Below, piece after piece: positions 16,210 to 64,000 of a DNA stretch of 64,000 nucleotides. Where the stretch lies: positions 95,270-159,269 of the IMG/VR virus record IMGVR_UViG_3300033074_000580; one strand, 5' to 3'. How positions within the stretch are numbered: position 1 is the stretch's first letter; every line of letters starts with the position of its first letter. Under the pieces are notes generated by a model. It was not told the origin of the DNA, made no database searches, and saw only the letters and a list, made by a program, of their open reading frames with translations. The translations under genes were made by a program, and so were the position numbers. The DNA is from a virus (lineage: Duplodnaviria > Heunggongvirae > Uroviricota > Caudoviricetes).

Positions 16210-16250
16210 CAAAAAGATTTTGAATATTTTGTAATTTCACAATTTATTCT

Positions 16251-16258: not shown

Positions 16259-16268
16259 TAAAACAAAT

Positions 16269-16341
16269 CGCGAGATAGTAGCAGCGGTAGCTCGCAAGGC
16301 TCATAACCTTGAGGTCGGGGGTTCGATTCCCTCTCTCGCAA
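16269..16341 (+). tRNA. trnfM: initiator tRNA-fMet(CAU)
   Basis: C1:A72 mismatch; loop CTCATAA. Confidence 0.88.
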
Positions 16342-16344
16342 CAA

Positions 16345-16608: not shown

Positions 16609-16613
16609 AAAAT

Positions 16614-16686
16614 GGGATTGAGGTCAAACGGTTAAGATGTCGCCCTGTCACGGCGCACGGAGCGGGTTCAACTCCCGTCAGTCCCG
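16614..16686 (+). tRNA. trnD: tRNA-Asp(GUC)
   Basis: GGGATTG/CAGTCCC; loop CTGTCAC. Confidence 0.9.
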
Positions 16687-16689
16687 CAA

Positions 16690-16897
16690 TGAGTAAGAGA
16701 TACTCAGGAAGTTTGGTAACGTTCTTTATAAATGTTATAGTTGACGCCTCAAACAACTCAAAGATGAGGTCGTGGGAACGAAGGACATCAACAATCCTCC
16801 CAGTAGTTGTGACTTTTATGTGCGGCTAAGGACCGTCGAGAGTTTTGAAGAGAAAAACCTAAGAAAATCCTACTCACCCGAATCTCAAGGTGGGGCA
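16690..16897 (+). ncRNA. unidentified ~210-nt multi-hairpin RNA
   Basis: TGAGTA-AGAGA-TACTCA, CCTCA/TGAGG, CTCACC/GGTGGG hairpins between tRNAs. Confidence 0.45.
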
Positions 16898-16901
16898 AAT
16901 T

Positions 16902-16988
16902 GGAGAGTTGGTAGAGCGGTTGAATACACCAGTCTTGAAAACTGGCATACTGGAAACGGTATCCGGGGTTCGAATCCCTGACTCTCCG
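16902..16988 (+). tRNA. trnS: tRNA-Ser(UGA)
   Basis: GGAGAGT/ACTCTCC; CCAGT-CTTGAAA-ACTGG; long variable arm. Confidence 0.92.
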
Positions 16989-16993
16989 CATTT

Positions 16994-17065
16994 GCTCGGT
17001 TCGACTAGTGGTTAGGTCGCATCCCTTTCACGGATGTAGCACGGGTTCGAATCCCGTACCGAGTA
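16994..17065 (+). tRNA. trnE: tRNA-Glu(UUC)
   Basis: GCTCGGT/ACCGAGT; CATCC-CTTTCAC-GGATG. Confidence 0.92.
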
Positions 17066-17107
17066 CTTCGTATATTTATATATAGATGGGTTACGACATC
17101 TAAAAAA

Positions 17108-17560
17108 ATGAAGAAAGTTTTCTTATTATTAGTCATTATGTTTTTGGGAGTGGAAACAATGACGTTTGGACAAGATATCAAATCATTATTTGATAAAACA
17201 AAATCACAAGAAGTTCTAATTTTCGGAACTAATAAATCTCAAGACGGTTACATTACGGGTGGTTATATGATTGGTGAATGGGGTCTTTATGCGGGATTTC
17301 CATATTCAGAAAGAAACAACTTATTAAACACATCAAATGGTACTGTTTCAAAGCAAATGAGATTCGGTATTTTAAAACAATTAAAACCTGATAAAATTTT
17401 AATGGGTGCAGGTGCTCAACCAACAAATGAAGGGACGAAATTAAATTGGTTTATTGGTTATAATCCATTACGTAGTAAAGACATGAAACTGTTAATAACA
17501 GGAAATGTAATCGGCTCAGAATTTGTTTTAGGTGCCGGTTTATCTTATAAAGTAAAATAA
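17108..17560 (+). CDS. secreted small beta-barrel-like protein between the tRNA clusters
   Basis: Signal peptide, alternating beta-strands, C-terminal GAGLSYKVK; TATTTATA upstream. Confidence 0.65.
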   Translation: MKKVFLLLVIMFLGVETMTFGQDIKSLFDKTKSQEVLIFGTNKSQDGYITGGYMIGEWGLYAGFPYSERNNLLNTSNGTVSKQMRFGILKQLKPDKILMGAGAQPTNEGTKLNWFIGYNPLRSKDMKLLITGNVIGSEFVLGAGLSYKVK

Positions 17561-17595
17561 TTTTAAAAAATATTTTACATTTTAAAAAATTTTTG

Positions 17596-17603
17596 TATAT
17601 TTG
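17596..17603 (+). promoter_or_regulatory. Bacteroidota-type promoter for tRNA cluster 2 leader
   Basis: TATATTTG. Confidence 0.7.
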
Positions 17604-17620
17604 ATTATACTTATTAAACA

Positions 17621-17731
17621 ATGAAGAACATAAATAATATATTGACCCTTACGAGTAGACCAGTTAATAATGGTAACGGGTATGGTGTGCAACCGTTATA
17701 TTACTTATGTTCGGATATCAATAAAGGATAA
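17621..17731 (+). CDS. 36-aa leader peptide of putative attenuator 2 (MKNINNILTLTSRPVNNGNGYGVQPLYYLCSDINKG)
   Basis: Lies between promoter and terminator; codons 3-29 all read by cluster 2 tRNAs; antiterminator segment 17708-17714. Confidence 0.78.
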   Translation: MKNINNILTLTSRPVNNGNGYGVQPLYYLCSDINKG

Positions 17732-17754
17732 TAAAATTTAAAACTTATATCGAG

Positions 17755-17784
17755 ACCCGAACACAAAAAATGTTCGGGTTTTTT
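17755..17784 (+). terminator. attenuator/terminator hairpin upstream of tRNA cluster 2
   Basis: ACCCGAACA/TGTTCGGGT stem + T run. Confidence 0.82.
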
Positions 17785-17844
17785 GTTTTATGATTTTTTA
17801 TTCTTATATTTGAATTGTAGTTCTTTGACATTGTGAGAAAATTT

Positions 17845-17929
17845 GCCGAGGTGATGGAATGGTAGACATGACAGACTTAAAATCTGTTGGGACGAAAGTC
17901 CCGTGCGGGTTCGACTCCCGCTCTCGGTA
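17845..17929 (+). tRNA. trnL: tRNA-Leu(UAA)
   Basis: ACAGA-CTTAAAA-TCTGT; variable arm. Confidence 0.92.
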
Positions 17930-17964
17930 CAAACACTATCGTTCTTTGATAAAATTAAAAGCGT

Positions 17965-18210
17965 ATGGATATACTATCATTTATTTTAGGAATGTCCGTT
18001 GTGGTGGTTATCGCAGTTGCGGTAGTTGCTGTAATGGCCTTTGTTAAGGTGAAGAAACATAACAAAGAAATTGAAACAATCCACACAATTATGAGTGGAG
18101 AATTTGAACGAGTGAACAGAGATATGACGGATATGCAAAGAGATATTTTCTCTTCGTTAGATTCCCGATTAGATAAACTAGAAAGTAAATTAAGCAGCCG
18201 TAAGGCATAA
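17965..18210 (+). CDS. membrane-anchored coiled-coil protein
   Basis: N-terminal TM, heptad C-terminus. Confidence 0.65.
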   Translation: MDILSFILGMSVVVVIAVAVVAVMAFVKVKKHNKEIETIHTIMSGEFERVNRDMTDMQRDIFSSLDSRLDKLESKLSSRKA

Positions 18211-18249
18211 AGATTAAATAAAAACTTTCAAAGACGATAGTGTTAATTT

Positions 18250-18323
<74 letters not shown>

Positions 18324-18324
18324 C

Positions 18325-18465
18325 AAAGATAATGGTCTGATGTTATTATGGTTGTCGACAAACCTGATAACTACTTCAACAGACAGCACCCTCTGCCGAG
18401 GCCTCAGTAAAACTCTGATGAAGCAGTTAAGATTGGAACGAGACGGGTATTCCATCATTGTCTTT
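18325..18465 (+). ncRNA. unidentified ~140-nt structured RNA
   Basis: AAAGATAATG/CATTGTCTTT closing stem enclosing several hairpins. Confidence 0.5.
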
Positions 18466-18471
18466 ATTTTT

Positions 18472-18547
18472 ATAGATGTAGAGGAGACAGGTTTATCTCG
18501 CCACATTTGGGATGTGGAGCACGTAGGTTCGAATCCTACCATCTATA
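18472..18547 (+). tRNA. trnP: tRNA-Pro(UGG)
   Basis: ATAGATG/CATCTAT; CCACA-TTTGGGA-TGTGG. Confidence 0.9.
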
Positions 18548-18553
18548 CAACAC

Positions 18554-18625
18554 GCTGATGTAGCTCAACGGCAGAGCAATTGACTGTTAATCAATAGGTT
18601 GAGATATCGTAATTCTCCATCAGCG
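18554..18625 (+). tRNA. trnN: tRNA-Asn(GUU), atypical T-arm
   Basis: GCTGATG/CATCAGC; ATTGA-CTGTTAA-TCAAT. Confidence 0.85.
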
Positions 18626-18631
18626 CAACAT

Positions 18632-18712
18632 GGCCGAGTGGTGTAATGGGAGCCACGCTAGTTTTAGGCACTAGTGTCGAAAGACGTGAGAGTTCGAATC
18701 TCTCCTTGGTCA
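18632..18712 (+). tRNA. trnL: tRNA-Leu(UAG)
   Basis: CTAGT-TTTAGGC-ACTAG; variable arm. Confidence 0.88.
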
Positions 18713-18718
18713 CAAAAT

Positions 18719-18802
18719 TGGAGGATGGGTGAGTGGCTAAAACCGGCAGACTGTAAATCTGCTCTCAGAACGGGTACGGGGGTTCGAATCCCTCTCCTCC
18801 AA
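18719..18802 (+). tRNA. trnY: tRNA-Tyr(GUA)
   Basis: TGGAGGA/TCCTCCA; GCAGA-CTGTAAA-TCTGC. Confidence 0.92.
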
Positions 18803-18808
18803 CATTTT

Positions 18809-18882
18809 GGACTTGTAGCTCAGTAGGTTAGAGCAACTGACTCATAATCAGTAGGTCCCTGGTTCGAGCCCAGGCTGGTCCA
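18809..18882 (+). tRNA. trnI: tRNA-Ile2(CAU, lysidine type)
   Basis: ACTGA-CTCATAA-TCAGT; body resembles bacterial Ile2 rather than Met tRNAs. Confidence 0.75.
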
Positions 18883-18961
18883 CGCAATGTGTCATTAGTC
18901 CCTGAAGTAATTCAAACTAATGGTCTCGGTAGACAGAACGCGTCTGATTCTACCCACAATT

Positions 18962-19033
18962 AGTCTCTTAGCTCAGAGGGAGAGCACTTGCCTTACATGC
19001 AAGGGGTCGGGATTTCAAAATTCTCAGGGACTA
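18962..19033 (+). tRNA. trnV: tRNA-Val(UAC)
   Basis: AGTCTCT/AGGGACT; CTTGC-CTTACAT-GCAAG. Confidence 0.88.
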
Positions 19034-19039
19034 CAACAA

Positions 19040-19115
19040 GCGGAAGTAGCTCATTCGGTAGAGCGACGCCTTGCCAAGGCGTAGGTGGCCAGTTCGAGCC
19101 TGGTCTTCCGCTCCA
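19040..19115 (+). tRNA. trnG: tRNA-Gly(GCC)
   Basis: GCGGAAG/CTTCCGC; ACGCC-TTGCCAA-GGCGT; encoded CCA. Confidence 0.93.
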
Positions 19116-19118
19116 TAA

Positions 19119-19190
19119 GCTCGGTTAGTTCAACCGGTAGAACAAATGATTTGTAATCATTAGACAACAGTTCGAATCTGTTACTGAGCT
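19119..19190 (+). tRNA. trnT: tRNA-Thr(UGU)
   Basis: GCTCGGT/ACTGAGC; AATGA-TTTGTAA-TCATT. Confidence 0.9.
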
Positions 19191-19244
19191 CAAAATAAAA
19201 TAAATACTTCCAAGTTTTTAATGTATTTGGAAGTATTTATAGAT

Positions 19245-19676
19245 ATGAAAACAAAAATATGCCCAAAATGTGAAATAGAATTACCATTAGATGATGAACA
19301 TTTCGCATCAAGATATGATAGAAAAGAAAAAATGTTCCAACATATCTGTAGAAAATGTCAAAGTGAGTATAGAAAAATTCACTATGAAAAAAATAAACAA
19401 AAATATATTGATAAGGCTAAGGTTTTTACTCAATCAATTAAAGAATGGTTTATTGAATATAAAAAAACATTAAAATGTAAAGAATGTGGTGAGGATAGGT
19501 ATTGGGTGTTAGATTTCCATCACAGGGACCCAAAAGAAAAAGATATTGATGTTTCTACTTTAATTAGAAAAGGAAACAAAAATAAAATATTAAAAGAAGT
19601 TGAAAAATGTGATGTTCTATGTTCTAATTGTCATAGAGATTTACATTTTAAACAAAATAATGCGGATTTCGCCTAG
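19245..19676 (+). CDS. HNH homing endonuclease
   Basis: N-terminal CxxC pairs; LDFHHRDP..CDVLCSNCHR; start moved to ATG 19245. Confidence 0.85.
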   Translation: MKTKICPKCEIELPLDDEHFASRYDRKEKMFQHICRKCQSEYRKIHYEKNKQKYIDKAKVFTQSIKEWFIEYKKTLKCKECGEDRYWVLDFHHRDPKEKDIDVSTLIRKGNKNKILKEVEKCDVLCSNCHRDLHFKQNNADFA

Positions 19677-19735
19677 TTGGTATGGCATCACACTTCCAAT
19701 GTGAAATAGGGTCGGTTCGAGCCCGATAATCCGCT
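19662..19735 (+). tRNA. trnG: tRNA-Gly(UCC)
   Basis: GCGGATT/AATCCGC; TCACA-CTTCCAA-TGTGA. Confidence 0.9.
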
Positions 19736-19741
19736 CATAAC

Positions 19742-19816
19742 TGTCCTCTCGTATATCGGTTATTACATCTGGTTTTGGTCCAGATAAGTGGGGTTCGATT
19801 CCCTGGGGGACATCCA
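19742..19816 (+). tRNA. trnQ: tRNA-Gln(UUG)
   Basis: TGTCCTC/GGGGACA; TCTGG-TTTTGGT-CCAGA; encoded CCA. Confidence 0.9.
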
Positions 19817-19828
19817 AAATTTTAAACT

Positions 19829-20059
19829 ATGAGTATTTTTGCAATTTATTACGTAATATGTATTGCGTATTGTTTTTATCAATTAAATAAGAAATATAAA
19901 AACAGAGGTATCGATTACGGAACATCACCTGAATTAGATTCCATTATGGTTTTAGTAATGGCTTGGATTTTAGCACCAATTGATGTTTCTATAACTTGGA
20001 TACGAATGGTAAAAGAAGCTGAAGAAGCTAAAAGAAGACAAGATAAACAAGTACTTTAA
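19829..20059 (+). CDS. small two-TM membrane protein
   Basis: Two hydrophobic segments. Confidence 0.6.
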   Translation: MSIFAIYYVICIAYCFYQLNKKYKNRGIDYGTSPELDSIMVLVMAWILAPIDVSITWIRMVKEAEEAKRRQDKQVL

Positions 20060-20060
20060 C

Positions 20061-20146
20061 GGAGAGTTACCCAAGTTGGTGAAGGGGGCAGTTTGCTAAA
20101 CTGTTAGGTCGTTCGCGGCGCAAGGGTTCGAGTCCCTTACTCTCCG
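20061..20146 (+). tRNA. trnS: tRNA-Ser(GCU)
   Basis: GGAGAGT/ACTCTCC; loop TTGCTAA; variable arm. Confidence 0.92.
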
Positions 20147-20151
20147 CACAT

Positions 20152-54746: not shown

Positions 54747-55089
54747 AATTATGTTTTCCACACCAAGGACAAATCGGTAGTGATTTTTTCTTTTTGTAGG
54801 TTGTTTGGGTATATAATTTCTTACAAGCCTTACACTTCAAAAACTTAGCATCCTTATTTAAATCATCGATACTTTTAACTTGTTTATCTGTAAGTGAACC
54901 TAATCTAATTTCATTGTCGTCATCTTCATTTAATTTTTCGTTGTCGTGCCCACATTTATGACACACATACATATCTTTTCCACCTTCAGATTTTTTCCAT
55001 TCCCACCCACATTTATCACAATGTATTTTTCCATTTTTTTCAGACTCAACTATATTCTTTAATTGAGACTCCGTTATAATAATTTTCAT
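54745..55089 (-). CDS. tandem zinc-ribbon protein with ITESQLK N-terminal motif
   Basis: Four CxxC pairs. Confidence 0.65.
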   Translation of the reverse strand: MKIIITESQLKNIVESEKNGKIHCDKCGWEWKKSEGGKDMYVCHKCGHDNEKLNEDDDNEIRLGSLTDKQVKSIDDLNKDAKFLKCKACKKLYTQTTYKKKKSLPICPWCGKHN

Positions 55090-55101
55090 AATGATAAATA
55101 G

Positions 55102-55320
55102 TTAGGTAATCTGTGTTTTTTCAAATCCATCTTTTAAAAACACCGAAAAGTCACCTGTAATCTTTTCTTTAAAGTTATGTAACTCCTCATAATGTTTTGT
55201 ACAAAGATATGTTGTAAATGAATACATACCAAGATTACTATCCAATACTTTGTAAGTTTCTTTGTGTTTCACATCCCTGTGACAACCAATAAATTGACAT
55301 TCGTGTTTTTCCATAAGCAT
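55102..55320 (-). CDS. small Cys/His protein
   Basis: CQFIGC..LCTKH. Confidence 0.55.
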   Translation of the reverse strand: MLMEKHECQFIGCHRDVKHKETYKVLDSNLGMYSFTTYLCTKHYEELHNFKEKITGDFSVFLKDGFEKTQIT

Positions 55321-55350
55321 AAAAAAACCCTCAATAGTGAGGGTTTTAAA

Positions 55351-55605
55351 TTATTTAATAAATCTATCAAATTCTTTTTTTATTGATTCATTCAAACTAT
55401 AATCAAATCTTGAATCATTATCTTTTGGTGCTTCAAGTGTTTTATTCTCCAAATGACTTATTATCACTCTTTTAGTATTTTCACTAATCTTATCACTTTC
55501 AGATAATGCCTTAACCATAAAGTCTCTAAATTCAATAGAAGGATTATTTAAAAGTGATGTCACCACGGCAGCTAAATAATCTCGTTCGTTTGCAACTAAA
55601 CTCAT
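55351..55605 (-). CDS. small protein with NESIKKEFDRF C-terminal motif
   Basis: ORF. Confidence 0.6.
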   Translation of the reverse strand: MSLVANERDYLAAVVTSLLNNPSIEFRDFMVKALSESDKISENTKRVIISHLENKTLEAPKDNDSRFDYSLNESIKKEFDRFIK

Positions 55606-55832
55606 TATAAAAATCTTTTAAAATTATCTTTAATTTTTTGAATTGATTCATTCATCATTGAATCTTCTTCTTTAACCTCTTCAGGTTCCTTAACATCAAC
55701 CTCTTCTTGGTCTTTATCCTCCAATTGGTCCATGTCTGTCATTTCTTCCTCATTTGTTTCCGCTTGATAAGTATGACGACGTTCCATGATTGTCTTTAAT
55801 TGTGCTTCTGTGATTTTGATTTTCTTTGCCAT
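55605..55832 (-). CDS. acidic small protein with ITEAQLK N-motif and NESIQKIKDNFKRFL C-motif
   Basis: ORF. Confidence 0.7.
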   Translation of the reverse strand: MAKKIKITEAQLKTIMERRHTYQAETNEEEMTDMDQLEDKDQEEVDVKEPEEVKEEDSMMNESIQKIKDNFKRFL

Positions 55833-55860
55833 GTTGTGCTTAATATCTTTATAAATATCG

Positions 55861-56772
55861 TTAAAATTCTTTATTTTTCATCTTCTCTTTGTGTTTTTCA
55901 AATTCGATGTCACCACCTCTTTGTGTAATCCACAATAAAGCCATTTTTGGTTCATCTGTATGAATAATATCCCCAACACAGAAACTCAATAATTCACCCT
56001 CAATAGCATCTATTTTATCTCTATACTCAATTCCTCTTCTTCTTTCATCGTCAGTTAAACTATACTTATCATTCTCATATTTTTGATTCAAATAGTCCAT
56101 ATCTCTTCTCCACGGTTCTTTTACTGTTGTCCATAATACATCCTTTGCAACAATATCGTGAATTAAGATTTCATTCCAAGAATTACTTAAAGTTGCTTGT
56201 GTTGCCTTATTTCTAATTTCGTGTCTATGTTCCGTTATAAATTCCTCAACCATTAAGATAAATCTAGCAATAAATTTAATTACTTCTTTTGGTTTCTTTT
56301 CATTATCGCCATACCAACTACTTGTATTTTGTGGGTAATTGTTTCGAATGTAATTATCCACCATACGACGATATTCACTATCTAAATGAGATGGGAATAC
56401 CGTACTTGATGATAACCATTTTTTACCTCTGTTGTCTGGATATGTTACTAAATTATAGTTACCCAAATATAATGTTTTACCTTCCAATTGAAATAACACA
56501 CCTCCACTTGTTCTAACTCCACTTAAATTTTTAAGATAACTTTTATCCATAAATGTAAATGATGAAATTCCTTTCTTTTCATTTATCATTTGTTTAATAC
56601 CCGAAATACCTGCAATATCTGTTACGTGAAACGTTGTGATTCTATAGTTACCGAATAATGTGTTACCAATTTTATTGGTTAATGGAACATAAAAACTCCT
56701 TAAATGAGATAATTCATCACCATAATTGGCTGGTTTACCATAATCTTCGTCTAAATTTACTTCTTTCATCAC
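55861..56772 (-). CDS. hypothetical protein
   Basis: 303-aa ORF. Confidence 0.6.
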   Translation of the reverse strand: MMKEVNLDEDYGKPANYGDELSHLRSFYVPLTNKIGNTLFGNYRITTFHVTDIAGISGIKQMINEKKGISSFTFMDKSYLKNLSGVRTSGGVLFQLEGKTLYLGNYNLVTYPDNRGKKWLSSSTVFPSHLDSEYRRMVDNYIRNNYPQNTSSWYGDNEKKPKEVIKFIARFILMVEEFITEHRHEIRNKATQATLSNSWNEILIHDIVAKDVLWTTVKEPWRRDMDYLNQKYENDKYSLTDDERRRGIEYRDKIDAIEGELLSFCVGDIIHTDEPKMALLWITQRGGDIEFEKHKEKMKNKEF

Positions 56773-56773
56773 A

Positions 56774-56787
56774 TATAAATATTTATA
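56774..56787. promoter_or_regulatory. palindromic divergent late-promoter-like motif TATAAATATTTATA
   Basis: Fills the 19-nt gap between divergent starts; TATTTATA precedes many genes on either strand. Confidence 0.6.
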
Positions 56788-56791
56788 AAAG

Positions 56792-57433
56792 ATGAAACTT
56801 ACCGATATAATATATGATATTGTTCTCGAATCATATTCTGATTTAAATGAACTTGGAACCGAGAATAAACAAATATACGATAAAGGTGCGTTTCATAATA
56901 TCTACCAATCAAAAAACAACCCAAACGTTCTATATAAAATAGGTACAGAAAAGATGGTTGATAGTTGGGTTAATATATTCAAATCTCGTCCTGACTTATT
57001 TCCTAAGGTTTATCGCACGGGTAAAATGGACTATGAGTTACCAAGGGATTTTACTGAATTAACCAATGGTGATATAGTAAAACACAAGGCGGGTGATGTT
57101 ATTAAAATATCTTATGTTGAGATTGAGAAGTTAGATGTTAGACAAGCCATTATACATTGGGACAGTTTAGATAACATTATCAAAACAATGTCTCCATCCA
57201 ATACTAATTTACAGACATACTTAACCCATTTAGGTCTTGAGGATTCATTAGAAGATGAATTTGTTGAATTGGGTGATAAACTAAAGGGAATTGGTAATGA
57301 ATATGGGTACGAACTATTCCGTGATTTTTATAATCTACTAATTCAGGTGTATGAAATAAAACCTGCCGCAGATGTTCACAAAAGAAATTTTGGTTACGAT
57401 AAAAATATGAAGTTAAAGATGTTGGACATCTAA
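56792..57433 (+). CDS. protein-kinase-like fold protein
   Basis: GAFHNIY, VLYK, DVHKRNFG, KMLDI. Confidence 0.6.
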   Translation: MKLTDIIYDIVLESYSDLNELGTENKQIYDKGAFHNIYQSKNNPNVLYKIGTEKMVDSWVNIFKSRPDLFPKVYRTGKMDYELPRDFTELTNGDIVKHKAGDVIKISYVEIEKLDVRQAIIHWDSLDNIIKTMSPSNTNLQTYLTHLGLEDSLEDEFVELGDKLKGIGNEYGYELFRDFYNLLIQVYEIKPAADVHKRNFGYDKNMKLKMLDI

Positions 57434-57745
57434 TTACTTATGTTTAATAATTAGTTCGCCCAACACCTCAATAATACCAACGAGTTTTTGGAACTCAACT
57501 TGTTCCATATCATCTGACAATTTTTTAACACATTCGTTAAATTCTTTCTTAGCATCTTCCACGTTAAACTTTCCTTCGGATGCTTTCTTATAATACGGTA
57601 ATTTCACCTTGAAGTGGTGATATGTTAACATTGCGGGTCCACCTTTTTCCTTTGCGTTATTTGCAATCTTTTCAGCTCCACCCATACGTTTTTCTGCGAA
57701 GGTGTCAAATGATTTAGACTCAGTTATAAGGTCGGATAGTTTCAT
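57434..57745 (-). CDS. hypothetical protein (LITES N-motif)
   Basis: ORF. Confidence 0.6.
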   Translation of the reverse strand: MKLSDLITESKSFDTFAEKRMGGAEKIANNAKEKGGPAMLTYHHFKVKLPYYKKASEGKFNVEDAKKEFNECVKKLSDDMEQVEFQKLVGIIEVLGELIIKHK

Positions 57746-58203
57746 TATAGAAATCTTTTAAAGTTTGATTTGATTTTTTCGATTGATTCGTTTAACTCAG
57801 GATTTTCCATAGACTCACTATCTTCATAATCTTCTGTTGGATTCTCACTAACATTTGCAAAATCCAATTTAAAATCACGAAGCATATCCATCAATCTTTC
57901 ACCATACTCATTTGATATTTTTCTAATTTCTTTTTCGAAATATCTCAATGAATCTGCTTGTTCTTTTATAAGTTTTTGTGTTTCAACTCCACCATAATCA
58001 ATTCCGGCCTCTTCAGCAATCAATTCATACGCATCGGCCATTTGACGTACCTGATATTCCATATCATCAAACCCAAAATCTTCATGATATGATTCTAATA
58101 TCCTCAATGCCTGGTCTCTATTTTCCATCTCACTTTGAGGTTGGTCCATTATATATTTTACCTTATCGTAAACATTTAATTTGTTGAATTCTTGACGTGT
58201 CAT
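57745..58203 (-). CDS. acidic protein with NESIEKIKSNFKRFL C-motif
   Basis: ORF. Confidence 0.65.
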   Translation of the reverse strand: MTRQEFNKLNVYDKVKYIMDQPQSEMENRDQALRILESYHEDFGFDDMEYQVRQMADAYELIAEEAGIDYGGVETQKLIKEQADSLRYFEKEIRKISNEYGERLMDMLRDFKLDFANVSENPTEDYEDSESMENPELNESIEKIKSNFKRFL

Positions 58204-58344
58204 ATTATAAAATGATTTATTAACATAAATATATAAAATTTTTGTTTAAATACAAAAAAGGGATATGAGTAGCGAATTCATATCCCAAACCCAGAACGTG
58301 TAACCATTCCGGTCCTAAGCGGGGTCTTCAAACCCCGGTTATCT

Positions 58345-58467
58345 TTAAGAATTATCTTTTACCAAATACTTTTTAAGTATTGCAAGGTTTTTCTGATATA
58401 ATTCCATTTTCTTTCTACCTGAACGTACACTTCTTTTTGCACGTGGTTTTTTTGCTGCTGTTCCCAT
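58345..58467 (-). CDS. 40-aa basic peptide not in the ORF track (MGTAAKKPRAKRSVRSGRKKMELYQKNLAILKKYLVKDNS)
   Basis: Manual translation; in operon; structured 3' UTR and terminator follow. Confidence 0.55.
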   Translation of the reverse strand: MGTAAKKPRAKRSVRSGRKKMELYQKNLAILKKYLVKDNS

Positions 58468-58477
58468 ATGTTATATT

Positions 58478-58840
58478 TTAATATTGTGAGTTATAGGTTA
58501 TGTTTGTTATATTTTCCGCATCTTTAAAGAACTCATACTTTTGTTCTTTGCTAATGGTTTTATCCATCGCCATGAATAGTGCGTTAAAGGTTTTGTCATC
58601 ATATGTTTTTCGACCCGTATTCTTCTTTTCAAGGAGTTTTTGTGCCATCGGATATATTGTCTTCGAATTAAACAATAAACTCTTTTTAAGGTCATTTATG
58701 GGAGTATTCTGAAACTCCCCGTCTTCACCCCTTAGGAAACGATTTAAGAACCCAAGTAATGTTTGCTCACCAACGGTAAGGTTTCTATTTTGTTGTTCTA
58801 TAATGGTCTTTAATTGTGATTCTGATATAACTAATTTCAT
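58478..58840 (-). CDS. late protein with ISESQLK N-motif
   Basis: Start moved to 58840; TATTTATA upstream. Confidence 0.7.
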   Translation of the reverse strand: MKLVISESQLKTIIEQQNRNLTVGEQTLLGFLNRFLRGEDGEFQNTPINDLKKSLLFNSKTIYPMAQKLLEKKNTGRKTYDDKTFNALFMAMDKTISKEQKYEFFKDAENITNITYNSQY

Positions 58841-58892
58841 AACATATAAATATCGACCCCGGCGTACGAAACCCGATACCGGCATACGAGGT

Positions 58893-59084
58893 TTAAATCA
58901 AGGGGGTATAATTCACCTTATCCTTATATTCTTTTATTTTTTCTTCAAGGAACTCCACCCTATCGGAATCTCCCATAATGGAATCATATTTCCCATAGTG
59001 TTTAACGAACGACTCAAGACCATCCCTTTCGATGTGTTCTTTCATCGATTTTACTGAGGGTAATATGCATCCGTTAAATCCCAT
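58893..59084 (-). CDS. hypothetical protein
   Basis: ORF. Confidence 0.55.
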   Translation of the reverse strand: MGFNGCILPSVKSMKEHIERDGLESFVKHYGKYDSIMGDSDRVEFLEEKIKEYKDKVNYTPLI

Positions 59085-59093
59085 GTTAATGTT

Positions 59094-59816
59094 TTAGTAT
59101 AAATACTTAATCTGTGATATAATATATTGTGCGAAGTCCTGGTGACCTTTCAAAGACCAGTGGTAATCTTCAATGGTTTTATCACTCCAATCATGAATGG
59201 TCTGATAATTCTCACGTATATCGACATCCCAAATATAACAATGAATATTGTTCTTTTCAAAATATTTCTTAAAGTTATTATATACGGTAGAATAATGCTG
59301 GGAATATAAGTCCCTATCTGTATAGAGAATATCCACCATATACTGAAGAAGAATATTGAGTTGGTCCTTGGTATAACGAGAATTATCGTGTTTGATTAAC
59401 TCTGTAATATTATGAGAGTTCACACTTAACATACTCTTTAGATTAAACGGTTCAGGTATAAGTAATCTATCATTGAATGTTTTATTGATAAACACGTAAT
59501 CACCCGTATTGATATTGGACAACTCACCTATAATGGAACTTATAATCTCCTCATTGGATGCACCTGTAACCCCCTTATTGATACGTTCAATTCCCAAATG
59601 GTTGGAGACAATATGTGTCCACGTTTTATCCTTATGTTCTTCCTTATAGGAGTTGAAGTTCTTAAATGGGAATGTGTTCCACATCTCATCAGGTATCTTA
59701 TCAACCATAGGATAATCCCACGTCTTGTTTATCTCGTTGAGATGACTTATCTCATAATCAAAATTCAATCCATACCCTGAAGTAAAACTACATCCGAAAA
59801 AATACCCACGTTTCAT
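59094..59816 (-). CDS. SGNH-hydrolase-like protein
   Basis: FFGCSFTSG, GASNEEI, HWSLKGH. Confidence 0.6.
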   Translation of the reverse strand: MKRGYFFGCSFTSGYGLNFDYEISHLNEINKTWDYPMVDKIPDEMWNTFPFKNFNSYKEEHKDKTWTHIVSNHLGIERINKGVTGASNEEIISSIIGELSNINTGDYVFINKTFNDRLLIPEPFNLKSMLSVNSHNITELIKHDNSRYTKDQLNILLQYMVDILYTDRDLYSQHYSTVYNNFKKYFEKNNIHCYIWDVDIRENYQTIHDWSDKTIEDYHWSLKGHQDFAQYIISQIKYLY

Positions 59817-59864
59817 ATGGTATAAATAGGTTTACATTCACATCTTTGTTTTCTATATTTTAGT

Positions 59865-60422
59865 ATGGCATATAGAGCATTTATTTGGAGACACAACAAT
59901 CCCGAGAAAAGGTCTGAACACAGAAGAAAGTATGTGGTTAGAAAAAAACTAAAAGAATTGGGTTATCTACCCTTAGATAATTCCCTAATGAATGAGGAAC
60001 AAAAAGAACTATACGAACAAATTGGTAGAAGTGATTATTCTTTTTGGGATAAGGTTAAATCGAAGAATGGACATGATGGTGGAACAAGAATAAGACAACA
60101 AAAGAAACAAATAAGGTCCGCCGAATATAGACTATGGGACAGACTTAGACAAAGTGCAAAAGATTCAGGTAAAGAATTTACCATCGAAGTTGAAGATATT
60201 GTTATTCCCGAATATTGTCCATATCTAAATGTGAAACTTACCACGGAACAAAGTGATTATAAACTACCGAATTATTATACGGGTGACAGAATAGATAGTA
60301 GTTTAGGATACATTAAGGGAAATGTACAAGTACTATCTTTCCTTGCTAATACTATGAAGAATAACGCAACCATAGAACAATTGGTAGAATTCTCTAAGAA
60401 TATTATTAAGTTGTACTCATAG
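59865..60422 (+). CDS. His-Me finger (HNH-type) homing endonuclease-like protein
   Basis: IPEYCPYL..DRIDSSLGYIKGNVQVLS..ANTMKN. Confidence 0.75.
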   Translation: MAYRAFIWRHNNPEKRSEHRRKYVVRKKLKELGYLPLDNSLMNEEQKELYEQIGRSDYSFWDKVKSKNGHDGGTRIRQQKKQIRSAEYRLWDRLRQSAKDSGKEFTIEVEDIVIPEYCPYLNVKLTTEQSDYKLPNYYTGDRIDSSLGYIKGNVQVLSFLANTMKNNATIEQLVEFSKNIIKLYS

Positions 60423-60423
60423 G

Positions 60424-60614
60424 TCCAAATTTCCCAAAAATTTCTGGAAAATTTTTTTTCTACTTTTAGGGAAAAAGTCGGTTTTTCAAGATTTTTTCCG
60501 GAAAAATTTCTGTTACGGCATTGACCCCCCTATACAGACACCAAAAAACCCCCTATATAAGGGGGGGTACCGACAGTCACGGGGGGAGGGAGGGGGGTCT
60601 TTCGACCCCCTACC
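60424..60614. other. phased A/T-tract, G/C-run and cruciform element (candidate origin or packaging/terminus site)
   Basis: A/T tracts roughly every 10-11 nt, CCCCC-TATATAA-GGGGG and GGGGGTC-TTTC-GACCCCC hairpins, G7/G6/G3/G6 runs. Confidence 0.45.
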
Positions 60615-60617
60615 TAC

Positions 60618-60971
60618 CTACACCTCCTCAGTTACTCTAAGGTCTCTACATACCTCGTCGTAAACGTTCTCGATAGAGTTCTTTAACTCACGAACCAAAC
60701 CGTCCGTATCATAAGAGACCTCAATACAATTCCCGTTAAGGTCTAAGGTCACGTTGTCCTCAATGTACGAACCGTCTACAACCTCCTCCACTCTATCCTT
60801 AATCTCTTGGATTAAGTGACTCTCAAACTCCGAAGTTCCACGTGGAACTTTTAGTAATTCGACCTCCATCGAATTGAGTAGTTGAATAACGTCTACCTTA
60901 GTGAAGATAGAAGGAAACGAACTTTCGACTTGTACCTTGTACTCCTCGATTACTTGACTAATGTTTTTCAT
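60618..60971 (-). CDS. acidic early protein, Ala-free
   Basis: Start moved to 60971; minus-strand TATATTTG at 61048-61055. Confidence 0.7.
   Translation of the reverse strand: MKNISQVIEEYKVQVESSFPSIFTKVDVIQLLNSMEVELLKVPRGTSEFESHLIQEIKDRVEEVVDGSYIEDNVTLDLNGNCIEVSYDTDGLVRELKNSIENVYDEVCRDLRVTEEV
60833..60850. promoter_or_regulatory. parS-like palindrome AAGTTCCACGTGGAACTT
   Basis: Perfect 18-bp palindrome with the parS core GTTCCACGTGGAAC. Confidence 0.6.
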
Positions 60972-60993
60972 AACATTAACATTTACATTAAAT

Positions 60994-61009
60994 TGTTTCA
61001 CGTGGAACA
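60994..61009. promoter_or_regulatory. parS site TGTTCCACGTGAAACA (minus-strand reading)
   Basis: 16/16 match to the chromosomal parS consensus TGTTNCACGTGAAACA. Confidence 0.75.
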
Positions 61010-61365
61010 TTTGGTGAGTTACCCGTGTTATGGACTATTCCATACACCAAATATAATGGATAGGTACATAATATCCTAATACTCCATGAAATTTAGAATG
61101 AATCTAAATAAGGAGAAATGGTGATTCCCGGCTGATCAGGGAAATACTTTACTGGATTAACTGGTATCTGGTAAAAATCCTGGCTGATCCCCAGAACAAA
61201 ACTAAACTGGATTGAAAAATAAAATTTGGTATAATGGATTTTTCTTTATACCTTTGTGTTTTGTATCTACTCCAGTAAAATAAAATTCGGATCCCCCGTC
61301 AAAAAAAGTTTGTTCTGGACCGAAAAATAATTGGGGTAAAATGATATTGATATTATATAAAGTAG

Positions 61366-61400
61366 TATATTTGAGTATTGTTTAACACTTAAATGTAATG
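61366..61400 (+). promoter_or_regulatory. early promoter/leader cassette TATATTTG(A/T/G)GTATTG-(T)TAAACACTTAAAT, repeated at 62198, 62764, 63498
   Basis: Near-identical sequence before each early ORF. Confidence 0.75.
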
Positions 61401-61943
61401 TTTATGAAAAAGAGAATCAAAATTTCCCGACCTGACTTTGTCAAAGTAATGGACTCCGTTAATGGAGGTACCTTTGTACGAGTGAAAAGTCGTACTCCTG
61501 TTAAAATGAACAAAACAGGTAACCCTTATTTCGGAGAGGTATTCAAGACCTCCGAGGGTATCGGAATGATTGGGAATGTTTACGAAGACCGAATCAACAA
61601 CAACCTTGGAAAAGAGGGTAAAGACAAGGACTTCAAAGTGAGTCGTAACAAAGTGGGTATCCACAAGAATCGTGTTATCGTGGAAAACACGAAGACCGAC
61701 AAGAAAGGAGTGGTAACCAAAAAAGACCACTTTATGTATGAGTGGTTTTTTGAGAAACCACATCGTAGGTCGTTTGAGTTTCAAGGTAACCCAATTGACC
61801 GACAATTATTTGAGTCGTGGGTAATCAAGTCAAATGGGTACTATACCCAACCTACCGACCGAAAGGTGTTAGTCTTACAACCCGAACTGAAAAACATTTT
61901 AGAGGTCACATACAAAGGAACAATATACGAACTGACCGACTAA
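61398..61943 (+). CDS. basic early protein, Ala-free
   Basis: Promoter, ORF, terminator (61950-61976) cassette. Confidence 0.75.
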   Translation: MFMKKRIKISRPDFVKVMDSVNGGTFVRVKSRTPVKMNKTGNPYFGEVFKTSEGIGMIGNVYEDRINNNLGKEGKDKDFKVSRNKVGIHKNRVIVENTKTDKKGVVTKKDHFMYEWFFEKPHRRSFEFQGNPIDRQLFESWVIKSNGYYTQPTDRKVLVLQPELKNILEVTYKGTIYELTD

Positions 61944-62229
61944 GAAACCAACCCCCGAGAAATCGGGGGTTTTTTTGTGTCATACATATTTTGTTTAACC
62001 TTTTCTCCTGAACCCTGAACAAACATTATACTGGATTAAGTCGTCATACACAACACAAAAAAAAACAACGACCGTTGGATCAATGAACATTTTACTGGAG
62101 TACGAGGTCCAGTATAATATATTTTTGTCATACGGGGAATGGGTTTGGGTTAGTCCTGGACTGAAAAGTTTATTTGGAAGTATAACGAATATGATTGTAT
62201 ATTTGTGTATTGTTAAACCACTAAATGTA

Positions 62230-62574
62230 ATGAAATTGAAAAAGACATTTTACCTATTAAGAGAAAAGAGTTTTGTAAACGACAACGTTTTAGATGTTGG
62301 AGTATTCATCGAGAAAATCGTGTTAACGACCGAGTCCGAAGACTTTAAAGAATTTACCAAGAGTTGTATCCAAAGGTCAACCGAAGAAATGTTTGAAGTC
62401 TATATTGACAATTTCCGATTCTACTTTAAAGATGAATTGGAAAATGAATCAGTAGAAGATGAACAATTTATGGTCTATAACAACATTCTTTTAGATGAAG
62501 ACCAATACAAGATGTTGATGAAACAAACGGAAGATATACCCCTTAGGGAAGTATTAGTGAACGAATTAGGATAG
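62230..62574 (+). CDS. acidic early protein, Ala-free
   Basis: Start moved to 62230; terminator 62596-62622. Confidence 0.7.
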   Translation: MKLKKTFYLLREKSFVNDNVLDVGVFIEKIVLTTESEDFKEFTKSCIQRSTEEMFEVYIDNFRFYFKDELENESVEDEQFMVYNNILLDEDQYKMLMKQTEDIPLREVLVNELG

Positions 62575-62801
62575 TTAGTTCCCCCACTAACTTAGACCCT
62601 CAACGAAAGTTGGGGGTTTTTTATTTCTCCTGATCTGATCCTGATCAGGAAGATAAATTTACTGGACTAAATCGTCATACAGACAAGAAAATTTGGGACT
62701 CACCTTCACAGAATACACTTTACTGGACTATGAATTTAATTTGTGTATAATGATATTACTTTGTATATTTGGGTATTGTTAAACACTTAAATACTAATGT
62801 T

Positions 62802-63005
62802 ATGTTACTCACAATGACTTCGACTTTAACGGGTAAGGTTCACACAATGGATTTGGACGTTACCGAAACCCAACTATCAACCTACTTTTCGGGTGGTGGT
62901 TTGTTACAAAACGTTTTCCCTCAACTGACTCCCCCTGAACGTGAGTTCATCAAAACGGGAATCACCCCAACGGAATGGGAGGAGGTCTTCGGAATGGACA
63001 TATAA
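62802..63005 (+). CDS. small early protein, Ala-free
   Basis: Start moved to 62802; terminator 63026-63054. Confidence 0.7.
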   Translation: MLLTMTSTLTGKVHTMDLDVTETQLSTYFSGGGLLQNVFPQLTPPEREFIKTGITPTEWEEVFGMDI

Positions 63006-63536
63006 ATAAAAGTTCCCCCACTTTTAACCCCGACAGAAATGTTGGGGTTTTTTTATGTCTGAAGGTCTTTACCGTCGCGCATGGAGGACAATTATACTGG
63101 ACCGTGGAGTTTGTTATAAAAAAATTATAACTTTTGTTTGGCTTACTGGTTTTCACGCCTTATCTTTGTGTCATCAATGAGAGAATGTAATGGTCGTGTG
63201 TTTATATTAGTGTGAATTTTATGGTGAGTTAAACAATCGGGAGAGGTAGACGAAAGTCTACCTTTCTTCGTTTATGTCATACACGTTTTCCTTGAGGACG
63301 AGGTCCCCGTAATTTTATGTACTGGAATGTGCTGGTCATACAGCGCAAACTTCCAGCGCAGGACCAGTGCTTTCGCTGTGTATATTTTACTGGACTGTCA
63401 TACTCCAGTACATTATTCCCGTCGCCGGCACAGACTCAGGGTGGGAGATGGTAATACTGGAATGAAAATTTAATTTGTAATAAAATAAAAAGGGTATTAT
63501 ATTTGGGTATTGAAATTATTCACACATAAACAAATA

Positions 63537-63899
63537 ATGAAAATGAAAGATTCTTTTGAAGAAAAAATGAAAAAAGATTATGTAACGAAAGGTTTCTTAT
63601 CCTCTCGTGAAAGTCCAACACAACAAGCTGTAACAATGTATTCAGTTTATTTATCAAATTTACCCGAAGATTGGGACGAAAAAATTATTCACATACCAAG
63701 TGTCGATAAGGTTAGACAACATTTTGGTATCACCTACGGATTTGAGAATATGATACGTTGGGGATTACAATTTGATTGTTCACATTCAAAGACATCGTCG
63801 GGTAGACACGTTTCAATGAATAGAGCTTATCTTATGGCAAAATCAAACTTATCAATGGGAATGATTATAACCAATAAGAAATTAAAAATGGCTTCATAA
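63537..63899 (+). CDS. early hypothetical protein
   Basis: Start moved to 63537; terminator 63928-63955. Confidence 0.7.
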   Translation: MKMKDSFEEKMKKDYVTKGFLSSRESPTQQAVTMYSVYLSNLPEDWDEKIIHIPSVDKVRQHFGITYGFENMIRWGLQFDCSHSKTSSGRHVSMNRAYLMAKSNLSMGMIITNKKLKMAS

Positions 63900-64000
63900 C
63901 AATTACAATAATTAAACAATCAGAATTGGGGTATCAGAAATGGTACCCCTTTTTTGTTGCCAATAATTTCTCGACGGTGCTGCGCTGCGATTTATTTTAC

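What the first reader, a model, noticed from the sequence alone, without database searches (positions are those of the whole stretch)
60520..63076. 2.5-kb segment almost devoid of GpC: four consecutive proteins (479 aa) contain no alanine
SEEN (manual count): only 2 GpC in 2557 nt (61131 and 61183, both in GGCTGATC), and none from 61185 to 63076, while CpG is plentiful. Roughly 80 would be expected if G and C are each about 18% (estimate). AGC, TGC, GGC, CGC and codon-junction GC are also absent, as are GCs in spacers, so selection acts on DNA and is strong enough to purge Ala from four ORFs. GpC also thins toward this region from about 58.9 kb. KNOWN: many restriction sites contain GC (AGCT, GGCC, TGCA, GCGC, GCNGC), and T5's first-injected DNA lacks restriction sites. 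INFERENCE: this is first-entering DNA evading GpC-directed restriction or modification-sensing defences before protection is established, and the Ala-free proteins are candidate anti-defence factors.
Basis: partly seen in the sequence, partly recalled or inferred. Interest (0 to 1): 0.85.

Follow-up and report, generated by a model that had tools for sequence, protein, structure and literature searches.

The report
GpC-free, alanine-free phage early gene cassettes
A giant lake phage keeps the two-letter DNA word GC out of every one of about twenty first-expressed gene units, so their proteins contain no alanine, which points to an unidentified enzyme that reads GC and acts on the phage's first wave of gene expression.

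Summary
Window 60520-63076 has 2 GpC against 91 expected, with normal CpG. It is the left end of an 11.3-kb block (genome 155.8-167.1 kb of a 324-kb jumbo phage with Bacteroidota-type promoters). The block holds about 20 promoter-to-terminator cassettes and 2,312 alanine-free residues.

New here:
- The purge follows transcription units: CDS 4 GpC in 7,369 nt (all in one ORF), UTRs 0 in 1,581 nt, inter-cassette spacers 25 in 2,295 nt. Relatives show the same contrast.
- It is selection, not mutation. Conserved Ala became mostly Ser. Own and relative sequences differ by 23%, yet no new GpC has appeared (76 expected).
- DUF932 lost all Ala at least twice independently.
- The whole genome avoids GpC where that is synonymous. 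Unrelated DUF932 phages of similar G+C have GpC o/e of 0.9-1.2.

"First-entering DNA escaping restriction" fits poorly, because the spacers keep AGCT, GCGC and GCWGC sites.

My best reading is that a GpC-reading factor acts on early transcripts or on their templates. The agent is unidentified. The scan has noted the same phenomenon in other lake jumbo phages (e1-5386907, e1-5337450, e1-5436935).

The parts
60423..60617 (.). Left boundary of the block: convergent-gene spacer with runs of G and C and a hairpin terminator. The last ordinary GpC is at 60518.
   Evidence: Sequence read; terminator-like hairpin (L001 5818-5834). Homologous element at the contig ends of relatives L008, L039 and L023.
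60618..61010 (-). Gene for a 130-aa acidic protein (pI 4.4) with 0 Ala and 0 GpC, transcribed leftward from the divergent promoter region.
   Evidence: No Pfam or PHROG family. Contig of RNA library X1 covers L001 5945-6293.
61011..61256 (.). Divergent promoter spacer. It holds the only two GpC of the finding (61131 and 61183, both GGCTGATC), one TTTACTGGA copy (61148), a -7 box for the minus gene (reverse complement at 61047-61054) and the first plus-strand -7 box (61249-61256).
61398..61943 (+). Gene for a 181-aa basic protein (pI 9.8) with 0 Ala and 0 GpC. Its own -7 box is at 61366-61373 and its terminator at 61950-61977. It appears to be a paralogue of L001:12815-13390; this rests only on a shared NLGKEGK motif seen by eye and was not aligned.
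   Evidence: No family found.
62230..62574 (+). Gene for a 114-aa acidic protein with 0 Ala and 0 GpC. The true start follows the -7 box at 62198-62205; the longer ORF from 62083 reads through the spacer. Terminator at 62594-62625.
62802..63005 (+). Gene for a 67-aa acidic protein of family phrog_20898 with 0 Ala and 0 GpC. -7 box at 62764-62771, terminator at 63026-63055.
   Evidence: E 4e-20; homologues in diverse phages.
63077..63987 (+). GpC-bearing island inside the block. 18 of its 22 GpC lie in terminator-to-promoter spacers (63077-63157, 63331-63428, 63959-63987). Between them is a short GpC-free promoter-to-terminator unit (about 63168-63274, no ORF) and one ORF (63510-63899, 129 aa) whose 4 GpC are all Ala codons. 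That ORF is absent from the closest relative fetched, L009.
63996..64000 (+). Start of the next cassette (TTTACTGGA copy). The GpC-free block continues past the window to genome 167,073 (L001:17073) with 16 more Ala-free genes, including DUF3846, DUF4314, an RNA polymerase alpha-CTD-like protein and DUF932.

Best explanation
The segment is the start of an 11.3-kb array of about 20 immediate-early gene cassettes of an uncultured 324-kb jumbo phage. Each cassette has a host-type promoter (TTTG-N19-TAnnTTTG, the Bacteroidota form), a conserved leader, one small and mostly acidic protein gene, and an intrinsic terminator. Shown: continuing purifying selection keeps GpC out of everything between promoter and terminator. 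The price is the removal of every alanine, mostly replaced by serine. The spacers between cassettes keep GpC. Inferred: the unit being protected is the expression unit, not the integrity of the DNA molecule. A factor that reads GpC would otherwise interrupt the first wave of gene expression, before the phage's own countermeasures exist. Later genes avoid GpC only where that is synonymous. I favour the early mRNA as the substrate (about 0.3 absolute): a GpC-directed endoribonuclease or RNA-modifying defence enzyme, or the phage's own host-shutoff RNase. This would work like CpG-poor immediate-early mRNA of cytomegalovirus escaping ZAP, or ACA-less mRNAs surviving MazF. The alternative within the same reading (about 0.2) is a GpC-reading enzyme acting on the DNA template whose damage, occupancy or cut matters only inside a transcription unit. 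The agent itself is not identified.
For: Own block: CDS 4 GpC in 7,369 nt (all in one ORF that L009 lacks), UTRs and terminator stems 0 in 1,581 nt (17 expected at the spacer rate, P 3e-8), spacers 25 in 2,295 nt. An automated partition gave Fisher p 6e-15. The contrast replicates in relatives: L012 has 4 in 3,415 nt against 14 in 834 nt; L006 has 12 in 3,332 against 22 in 667; L008 has 28 in 6,158 against 51 in 2,141. With database gene calls, pooled relatives give CDS 5 in 16,019, UTR 2 in 2,528 and spacers 25 in 4,920. Untranslated transcribed sequence is purged too, so the constraint is not at codon or tRNA level. It is selection: GpC is zero at all three codon phases against 94, 9 and 10 expected; conserved Ala columns of DUF932 became mostly Ser, also Gly or Val; the 1,183 substitutions separating own sequence from L009, placed at random, would give 76 +/- 8 GpC, and 5 are observed; Ala-free DUF932 arose in two separate, well-supported clades. 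Genome-wide, NGC codons make up 4-7% of their NGY pairs against 21-35% for most other NNY pairs (GTY 8% and CTY 12% are also low), and G|C junctions have o/e 0.37. Control phages with distant DUF932 and 31-36% G+C have GpC o/e 0.9-1.2. Early character: 44 copies of TTTACTGGA occur only in genome 156.4-174.1 kb, 13 of the 31 plus-strand full promoter motifs lie in the block, and terminator-like sites number 28 against 7.8 expected. Two-letter specificity is usual for RNA-targeting enzymes: CmdT modifies GA in mRNA (10.1101/2024.02.24.581662) and MqsR cuts GCU (PMC4905990).
Against: GpC is its own reverse complement, so strand specificity, the decisive RNA signature, cannot be read from sequence. 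CATG, a second word excluded from early transcription units in L009 and L012 but kept in spacers, is also a palindrome, which is more typical of enzymes that read DNA. Spacers of the purged zone are themselves depleted (o/e 0.2-0.4 against a genome mean of 0.59). Part of the contrast could therefore reflect GpC retained in functional spacer motifs such as GCTGATC. Promoters and terminators are predicted, not mapped. A contig from an RNA library (X6) covers one GpC-bearing spacer. No MazF or barnase family gene was found in the phage; the MqsR search rang in no control genome and is uninformative. The host is unknown. One ORF with 4 GpC sits inside the block.
Confidence: 0.5

Rival explanations
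1. The block is the first DNA to enter the cell, or the DNA exposed before protection is set up. It avoids GC-core restriction sites or a GpC-directed DNA nuclease. [quoted passage not shown]
For: GpC is a palindrome, and many Type II sites have a GC core. The genome shows classical site avoidance elsewhere: GATC 43 against 960 expected and CTAG 0.25. Relatives avoid ACGT, or CTGG together with CCAG, across the whole locus. Spacers of the purged zone are also somewhat depleted. Published precedent for motif loss confined to the leading region: PMC12455610. Contigs of several relatives end at or inside the block.
Against: Spacers inside the block keep 25 GpC, including AGCT, GCGC, GCWGC and GCCGGC. 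In L006 and L008 most GpC of the zone are in spacers, so removing Ala from the proteins would barely reduce the number of targets. All 16 NGCN contexts are purged while CpG is untouched, which no known set of restriction sites predicts. The block is mid-contig, and its position differs among near-complete contigs of relatives. The contig ends are explained by a 72-bp tandem repeat and by G/C homopolymer runs.
Confidence: 0.2
2. Avoidance of modification. The phage (it encodes two C5-cytosine methyltransferase-like genes and an N6/N4 methyltransferase) or its host methylates GpC. Early transcription units must stay free of modified sites because modified template, or proteins bound to it, hinder host RNA polymerase or mark the DNA. 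Spacers may carry the marks.
For: PF00145 hits at genome 207.2-208.1 kb (325 aa, closest solved relatives DNMT3A/B catalytic domains, E 1e-13) and at 204 kb (236 aa), plus PF01555 at 217.6 kb. This model explains both the palindromic word and the confinement to transcription units. GATC and GpC cluster together in spacers as ordered TGATC repeats after terminators. A GpC-specific methyltransferase exists in chloroviruses (M.CviPI; own knowledge).
Against: The specificity of the phage methyltransferases is unknown. 5-methylcytosine is not known to block bacterial RNA polymerase (own knowledge). Self-inflicted protective methylation does not explain the genome-wide synonymous avoidance of GpC.
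Confidence: 0.12
3. Mutational or historical origin: a GpC-context cytosine deaminase, or recent import of the block from a GpC-poor donor, without continuing selection.
For: AC is enriched in the block (o/e 1.33 against 0.99). Block codon usage differs from the rest of the genome.
Against: Ala is replaced mainly by Ser, which requires a G-to-T transversion, not by Val or Thr as deamination would give. GT is not enriched. At 23% divergence no new GpC has appeared. The purge is convergent in two clades. The boundaries follow promoters and terminators.
Confidence: 0.03
4. Selection on alanine decoding: early proteins avoid Ala because tRNA-Ala or alanyl-tRNA synthetase is attacked or limiting early in infection.
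For: There is no Ala in 2,312 residues. ARAGORN finds no tRNA-Ala among the 23 phage tRNAs in the window.
Against: AGC, TGC, GGC, CGC, G|C junctions, 5' and 3' UTRs and terminator stems are purged as completely as the Ala codons. None of these involves alanine.
Confidence: 0.02

Closest known systems
CpG suppression of the cytomegalovirus immediate-early 1 gene to evade the RNA sensor ZAP (PMC7498042)
   Same: A dinucleotide is removed from the earliest temporal class of viral genes only, at synonymous sites and beyond, so that first-wave transcripts are invisible to a host factor that reads the dinucleotide.
   Different: That case is a eukaryotic virus, the word is CpG, and the sensor is known. 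Here the suppression is absolute and removes an amino acid from about 20 proteins.
Restriction-motif loss confined to the first-injected region (T5 first-step-transfer DNA, own knowledge; Murciavirus leading region and Type I RM, PMC12455610)
   Same: Word avoidance is limited to an early, hypervariable region that encodes small early proteins.
   Different: Those cases concern 4-8 bp or bipartite restriction motifs anywhere in the entering DNA. Here the word has two letters, restriction palindromes persist in the spacers, and a terminal location is not shown.
Defence enzymes and toxins that read very short RNA words: CmdT ADP-ribosylates GA in mRNA (10.1101/2024.02.24.581662); MqsR cuts GCU (PMC4905990); MazF with engineered ACA-less mRNAs (own knowledge)
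   Same: These enzymes have two- to three-letter specificity on single-stranded RNA, and transcripts lacking the word are immune.
   Different: No such enzyme for GpC is known, and none was found in this phage. The CmdT authors judged escape by loss of sites implausible; this block shows that it can be achieved for a gene set.
Genome-wide counter-selection of GATC and other palindromes in phages (own knowledge); chlorovirus frequent-cutter systems including the GpC methyltransferase M.CviPI (own knowledge)
   Same: This genome has GATC at 4% of expectation and GpC at 59%. Giant viruses with enzymes of 2-4 bp specificity are the only known DNA-level readers of GpC.
   Different: Classical avoidance is uniform along a genome. 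Here GpC loss is total in one temporal class, and GATC is concentrated in that class's spacers.

Membership tests
Leading / first-injected region with restriction-site avoidance (T5 FST type) | The region lies at the genome end that enters first | tested here: inconclusive
   The block is at 155.8-167.1 kb of a 323.9-kb contig that IMG/VR classes as linear without end repeats. Its position differs among 286-336 kb contigs of relatives. Contig ends near the block are explained by repeats. The read-level terminus test was not possible.
Leading / first-injected region with restriction-site avoidance (T5 FST type) | The avoided words are restriction recognition sites, and they are avoided throughout the region's DNA | tested here: not met
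   All 16 NGCN contexts are purged from the transcription units, while AGCT, GCGC, GCWGC and GCCGGC persist in the spacers. Spacer density is 13- to 20-fold that of the transcription units.
Leading / first-injected region with restriction-site avoidance (T5 FST type) | The region encodes known anti-restriction or takeover proteins | tested here: inconclusive
   DUF3846, DUF4314, RNA_pol_A_CTD and DUF932 domains are present and most proteins are acidic. There is no hit to a characterised anti-defence family.
Dinucleotide-suppressed immediate-early transcripts (HCMV IE1 / ZAP type) | Suppression covers synonymous sites and untranslated transcribed sequence, but not flanking untranscribed DNA | tested here: met
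   CDS 4 in 7,369 nt, UTR 0 in 1,581 nt, spacers 25 in 2,295 nt; replicated in relatives. The transcription-unit borders are predicted, not measured.
Dinucleotide-suppressed immediate-early transcripts (HCMV IE1 / ZAP type) | Suppression is confined to the earliest temporal class | tested here: inconclusive
   The cassettes have host-type promoters and share the early-block word. The distal part of the same block, beyond the GC-rich element at genome 168.0 kb, has ordinary GpC. No timing data are available.
Dinucleotide-suppressed immediate-early transcripts (HCMV IE1 / ZAP type) | A host factor binds or cuts RNA at the dinucleotide | not testable with these tools
   The host is unknown, and no GpC-specific RNA enzyme is on record in the papers searched.
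Site-less mRNAs resistant to a sequence-specific endoribonuclease toxin (MqsR / MazF type) | A cognate RNase gene is present in the phage or the host | tested here: not met
   PF02452 and PF00545 are absent from the phage genome. The PF15723 search rang in no control genome and is uninformative. The host was not examined.
DUF932 (PF06067) phage/plasmid-like protein | Full-length match to the family profile | tested here: met
   L001:15040-15885 carries PF06067 in the precomputed table. It has 2,004 homologues, and jgi names include the TIGR03299 family.

The most novel reading that the evidence does not exclude
Bacteroidota, or these phages themselves, possess a still-undescribed enzyme that recognises the dinucleotide GpC in single-stranded RNA: a nuclease or an RNA-modifying defence toxin. 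A whole lineage of lake jumbo phages has answered with "stealth" immediate-early mRNAs that contain no GpC at all, giving up alanine in about 20 proteins. This would be a natural counterpart of ACA-less mRNAs under MazF, and it would show that escape from a two-letter immune specificity is evolutionarily attainable.
Probability: 0.3. Interest if true: 0.9.

Novelty: new variant of a known kind. Interest (0 to 1): 0.82.

Why it matters
Word avoidance is the classic footprint of restriction. Here it reaches an extreme: a two-letter word is removed completely, an amino acid is lost from a whole temporal class of proteins, and the removal follows transcription units rather than DNA. That points to an immune or takeover activity with dinucleotide specificity that nobody has described in bacteria. 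It also gives a clean handle for finding that activity: restore GpC and look for what cuts, modifies or blocks. It shows that 20 proteins, including members of widespread families (DUF932, DUF3846, DUF4314, an RNA polymerase alpha-CTD-like protein), appear to remain under purifying selection without alanine (90% aa against about 80% nt identity for DUF932 between own sequence and L009). At conserved positions Ser takes the place of Ala, and this happened at least twice independently. It contradicts the published expectation that phages cannot escape a dinucleotide-specific defence by losing sites. It also marks the immediate-early gene set of an uncultured phage family from sequence alone.

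Tried and rejected
- Megablast of window 55000-64000 against the phage collection: no match.
- Pfam, PHROGs and ESM Atlas on the four ORFs: only phrog_20898 (function unknown) for the 67-aa protein; no function for the 130-aa or 181-aa proteins.
- Rfam over the block: nothing above threshold.
- Known RNase toxin families in the phage: MazF/PemK and barnase/T1 absent. The MqsR model rang in no control genome, so that search is uninformative.
- Public RNA runs: contigs of one metatranscriptome (X1) lie within eight cassettes at low depth. DNA carry-over cannot be excluded. Uncovered spacers are not evidence, and one contig of another RNA library (X6) covers a GpC-bearing spacer. This gives no verdict on whether the spacers are transcribed.
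- Positional gradient of GpC along other genes: none.
- Sense-strand depletion of CAT-containing words looked like an RNA-level signature. It is mostly explained by a general shift from NAT to NAC codons in the block.
- Lineage-specific loss of CTGG with CCAG (L046) and of ACGT (L018) looked like block-specific DNA-level purges. Both extend over the whole 20-kb loci, so they are ordinary locus-wide avoidance.
- The clustering of relatives' contig ends just upstream of DUF932 looked like physical termini. The ends lie in a 72-bp tandem repeat or in the G/C-run boundary element, which are likely assembly breaks.
- Literature searches found no earlier description of GpC-free or alanine-free phage early genes. 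The moraphage paper does not mention it.
Full report
**Observation.** Window 60520-63076 contains 2 GpC where 91 are expected from base composition; CpG is 84 against 91. Both GpC (61131, 61183) sit in GGCTGATC. The window lies in a single 323,865-bp contig at 32% G+C, at genome positions 95,270-159,269. The genome carries tail-fibre genes, 23 tRNAs and a tmRNA in the window, so it is a jumbo phage. IMG/VR rates it 97% complete. Genome-wide GpC o/e is 0.587. Even at that rate the segment should hold about 53 GpC, giving P of about 1e-20.

**True extent.** The GpC-free zone runs from genome 155,787 to 167,073, with GpC-free stretches of 613, 1894, 3314, 3389 and 1017 nt. It is interrupted by a 0.9-kb GpC-bearing island (window 63077-63987) and four further short spacers that hold GpC. 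Excluding the island, the block has 8 GpC in about 10.4 kb (o/e 0.03), while CpG is at 1.00. Twenty genes totalling 2,312 codons have no alanine. They have no GpC at codon positions 1-2, 2-3 or 3-1, against 94, 9 and 10 expected at the rate of the rest of the genome. Zero-GpC ORFs elsewhere in the genome are few and short.

**Anatomy.**
- The block is built of cassettes. Each has a TTTG-N19-TAnnTTTG promoter, which is the Bacteroidota -33/-7 consensus (own knowledge). This is followed by a conserved leader, one small ORF and a hairpin-plus-T terminator.
- Terminator-like sites number 28 against 7.8 in shuffles.
- The word TTTACTGGA occurs 34 times on the plus strand and 10 times on the minus strand, only between genome 156,417 and 174,108. 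The GpC-free cassettes are therefore the proximal 11 kb of a block of about 18 kb.
- Beyond a GC-rich, GATC-bearing element at genome 168.0 kb, genes have ordinary GpC.
- Recognisable domains are DUF3846, DUF4314, an RNA polymerase alpha-CTD-like domain, DUF932 and phrog_20898. Most of the proteins are acidic.
- Codon usage differs from the rest of the genome. NAC codons are about 50% against 25-30%, and ATA is rare. This makes the total absence of AGC, TGC, GGC and CGC more striking.

**Key result: the purge follows transcription units.**
- With curated promoters and terminators, CDS holds 4 GpC in 7,369 nt. All four are Ala codons of one ORF (window 63510-63899) that the closest relative fetched lacks.
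- 5' and 3' UTRs, including terminator stems, hold 0 in 1,581 nt. Terminator-to-promoter spacers hold 25 in 2,295 nt. At the spacer rate 17 would be expected in the UTRs (P 3e-8).
- The spacer GpC include AGCT, GCGC, GCWGC and GCCGGC.
- An automated partition gives the same contrast in relatives: L012 has 4 in 3,415 nt against 14 in 834 nt; L006 has 12 in 3,332 against 22 in 667; L008 has 28 in 6,158 against 51 in 2,141.
- A partition based on database gene calls gives pooled CDS 5 in 16,019, UTR 2 in 2,528 and spacers 25 in 4,920.
- The spacers are not neutral. Their o/e is 0.2-0.4 here and 0.5-0.8 in more distant relatives, and outside the island this genome's spacers hold only 7 GpC. They are still 13- to 20-fold denser in GpC than the transcription units.

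**Selection, not mutation.**
- DUF932 (L001:15040-15885) has 2,004 homologues. Those at 67% identity or more have no Ala; those at 64-68% have 3-10.
- Columns where the Ala-bearing group is nearly invariant for Ala hold Ser in the Ala-free clade, and less often Gly, Val or Cys. These are not the Val and Thr that cytosine deamination would give.
- Across 5.2 kb aligned with relative L009 there are 1,183 substitutions (23%). Placed at random they would create 76 +/- 8 GpC; each genome has 5, all in spacers.
- In a maximum-likelihood tree the Ala-free DUF932 proteins form two separate clades with 100% support. One is nested among Ala-bearing sisters, so the loss happened at least twice.
- The boundary of the purged zone moves between lineages. 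In L012 and L006-L008 it stops just upstream of DUF932; in L011 it continues 7 kb downstream.

**Genome-wide and family context.**
- In the rest of the genome NGC codons make up 4-7% of their NGY pairs, against 21-35% for most other NNY pairs (GTY 8% and CTY 12% are also low). G|C junctions have o/e 0.37 and intergenic GpC 0.58. The whole phage therefore avoids GpC where avoidance is free, and only the early cassettes give up alanine.
- About 40 IMG/VR relatives (53-67% DUF932 identity) all show GpC o/e of 0.2-0.7, with the lowest values upstream of DUF932.
- Unrelated phages carrying distant DUF932 genes at 31-36% G+C have o/e 0.9-1.2. Low G+C therefore does not explain the pattern.

**Interpretation.** If a GpC-reading DNA nuclease threatened the entering genome, the spacer sites would be as dangerous as sites in genes. 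Stripping alanine from proteins while leaving 25 sites in the spacers, or a majority of sites in L006, would buy little. Alanine decoding is excluded as the target because non-Ala GpC and untranslated RNA are purged equally. What is protected is the expression unit.

I therefore read the block as "stealth" immediate-early units facing a GpC-reading activity that acts on the transcripts or on the template during transcription. I favour RNA for two reasons. Two-letter specificity is normal for RNA enzymes: CmdT acts at GA and MqsR at GCU. It is almost unknown for DNA enzymes. RNA-level pressure also explains the milder genome-wide avoidance, since nearly all of the genome is transcribed.

Several points argue against RNA:
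- GpC is a palindrome.
- CATG, a second word missing from early units in L009 and L012 but present in their spacers, is also a palindrome.
- No RNase candidate was found in the phage.

Rivals:
- A template-level variant of the same reading: damage, a roadblock or a tolerated cut that matters only inside a unit.
- Modification avoidance. The phage has two C5-methyltransferase-like genes, one DNMT3-like, and an N6/N4 methyltransferase.
- The classical first-entry restriction model, which cannot be excluded without terminus mapping.

**Comparison with the known.** The nearest analogues are CpG suppression in cytomegalovirus IE1 against ZAP (PMC7498042) and motif loss in first-injected phage DNA (PMC12455610). 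Neither involves total loss of a dinucleotide, an amino-acid-free proteome, or a contrast between transcription units and spacers. I found no published description. Earlier notes of this scan report the same trait in other lake jumbo phages and in small Synechococcus elements. It therefore looks like a recurrent strategy, not a curiosity of one genome.

Noticed in passing
whole genome; early-block spacers at genome 156.4-174.6 kb (window 61134 onward): GATC occurs 43 times in 324 kb against about 960 expected (o/e 0.04). 30 of the 43 lie in spacers of the early block, often as ordered TGATC triplets just after a terminator and about 10 nt before TTTACTGGA. GATC is thus purged everywhere except where it seems to be used as a signal.
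   Followed up: partly
window 63168-63274: A short promoter-to-terminator unit without an ORF, GpC-free. It folds at -35.5 kcal/mol (z -4.0 against shuffles) and has no Rfam match. It may be a small early RNA; the region is partly conserved in relative L009.
   Followed up: partly
window 60520-60600: Boundary element made of runs of C and G (possible G-quadruplex or hairpin). A homologous sequence forms the very end of contigs of three relatives (L008, L039, L023).
   Followed up: partly
genome 155.9-167.0 kb against the rest of the genome: Early cassettes use different codons from the rest of the genome: NAC about 50% against 25-30%, ATA 8% of Ile codons against 31%, and CGA enriched. This would fit translation before the phage's own tRNAs are available.
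   Followed up: no
L009 1-19300 and L012 1-13200: CATG is absent from all early transcription units of these relatives. It survives only in GC- and GATC-rich spacers (5 of 5 copies), and is common just outside the early block. This is a second word that follows the unit-versus-spacer rule.
   Followed up: partly
L013:820-1797(-), L014:1150-1860(-), L016 (genome 203-218 kb): Two C5-cytosine methyltransferase-like genes (325 aa, nearest solved relatives DNMT3A/B catalytic domains; and 236 aa) and one N6/N4 methyltransferase. Their specificities are unknown.
   Followed up: partly
L001:12193-12489 (genome 162193-162489): An alanine-free 98-aa early protein with an RNA polymerase alpha-subunit C-terminal domain (Pfam E 1e-11). 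It is a candidate decoy for host transcription factors or UP-element binding.
   Followed up: no
window 59865-60422: An HNH/endonuclease VII-like gene (phrog_3322, E 1e-26) with 6 Ala sits directly left of the block. It is probably a homing endonuclease insertion.
   Followed up: no
window 15195-20147: ARAGORN lists 23 tRNAs and no tRNA-Ala or tRNA-Asp. An earlier first-reader note on this window counts 26, including Ala-UGC. The discrepancy was not resolved.
   Followed up: no
L040, L043, L054 positions 1-130: Three independent assemblies of one relative end at the same base inside a 72-bp tandem repeat rich in GpC, 6.6 kb upstream of DUF932.
   Followed up: no
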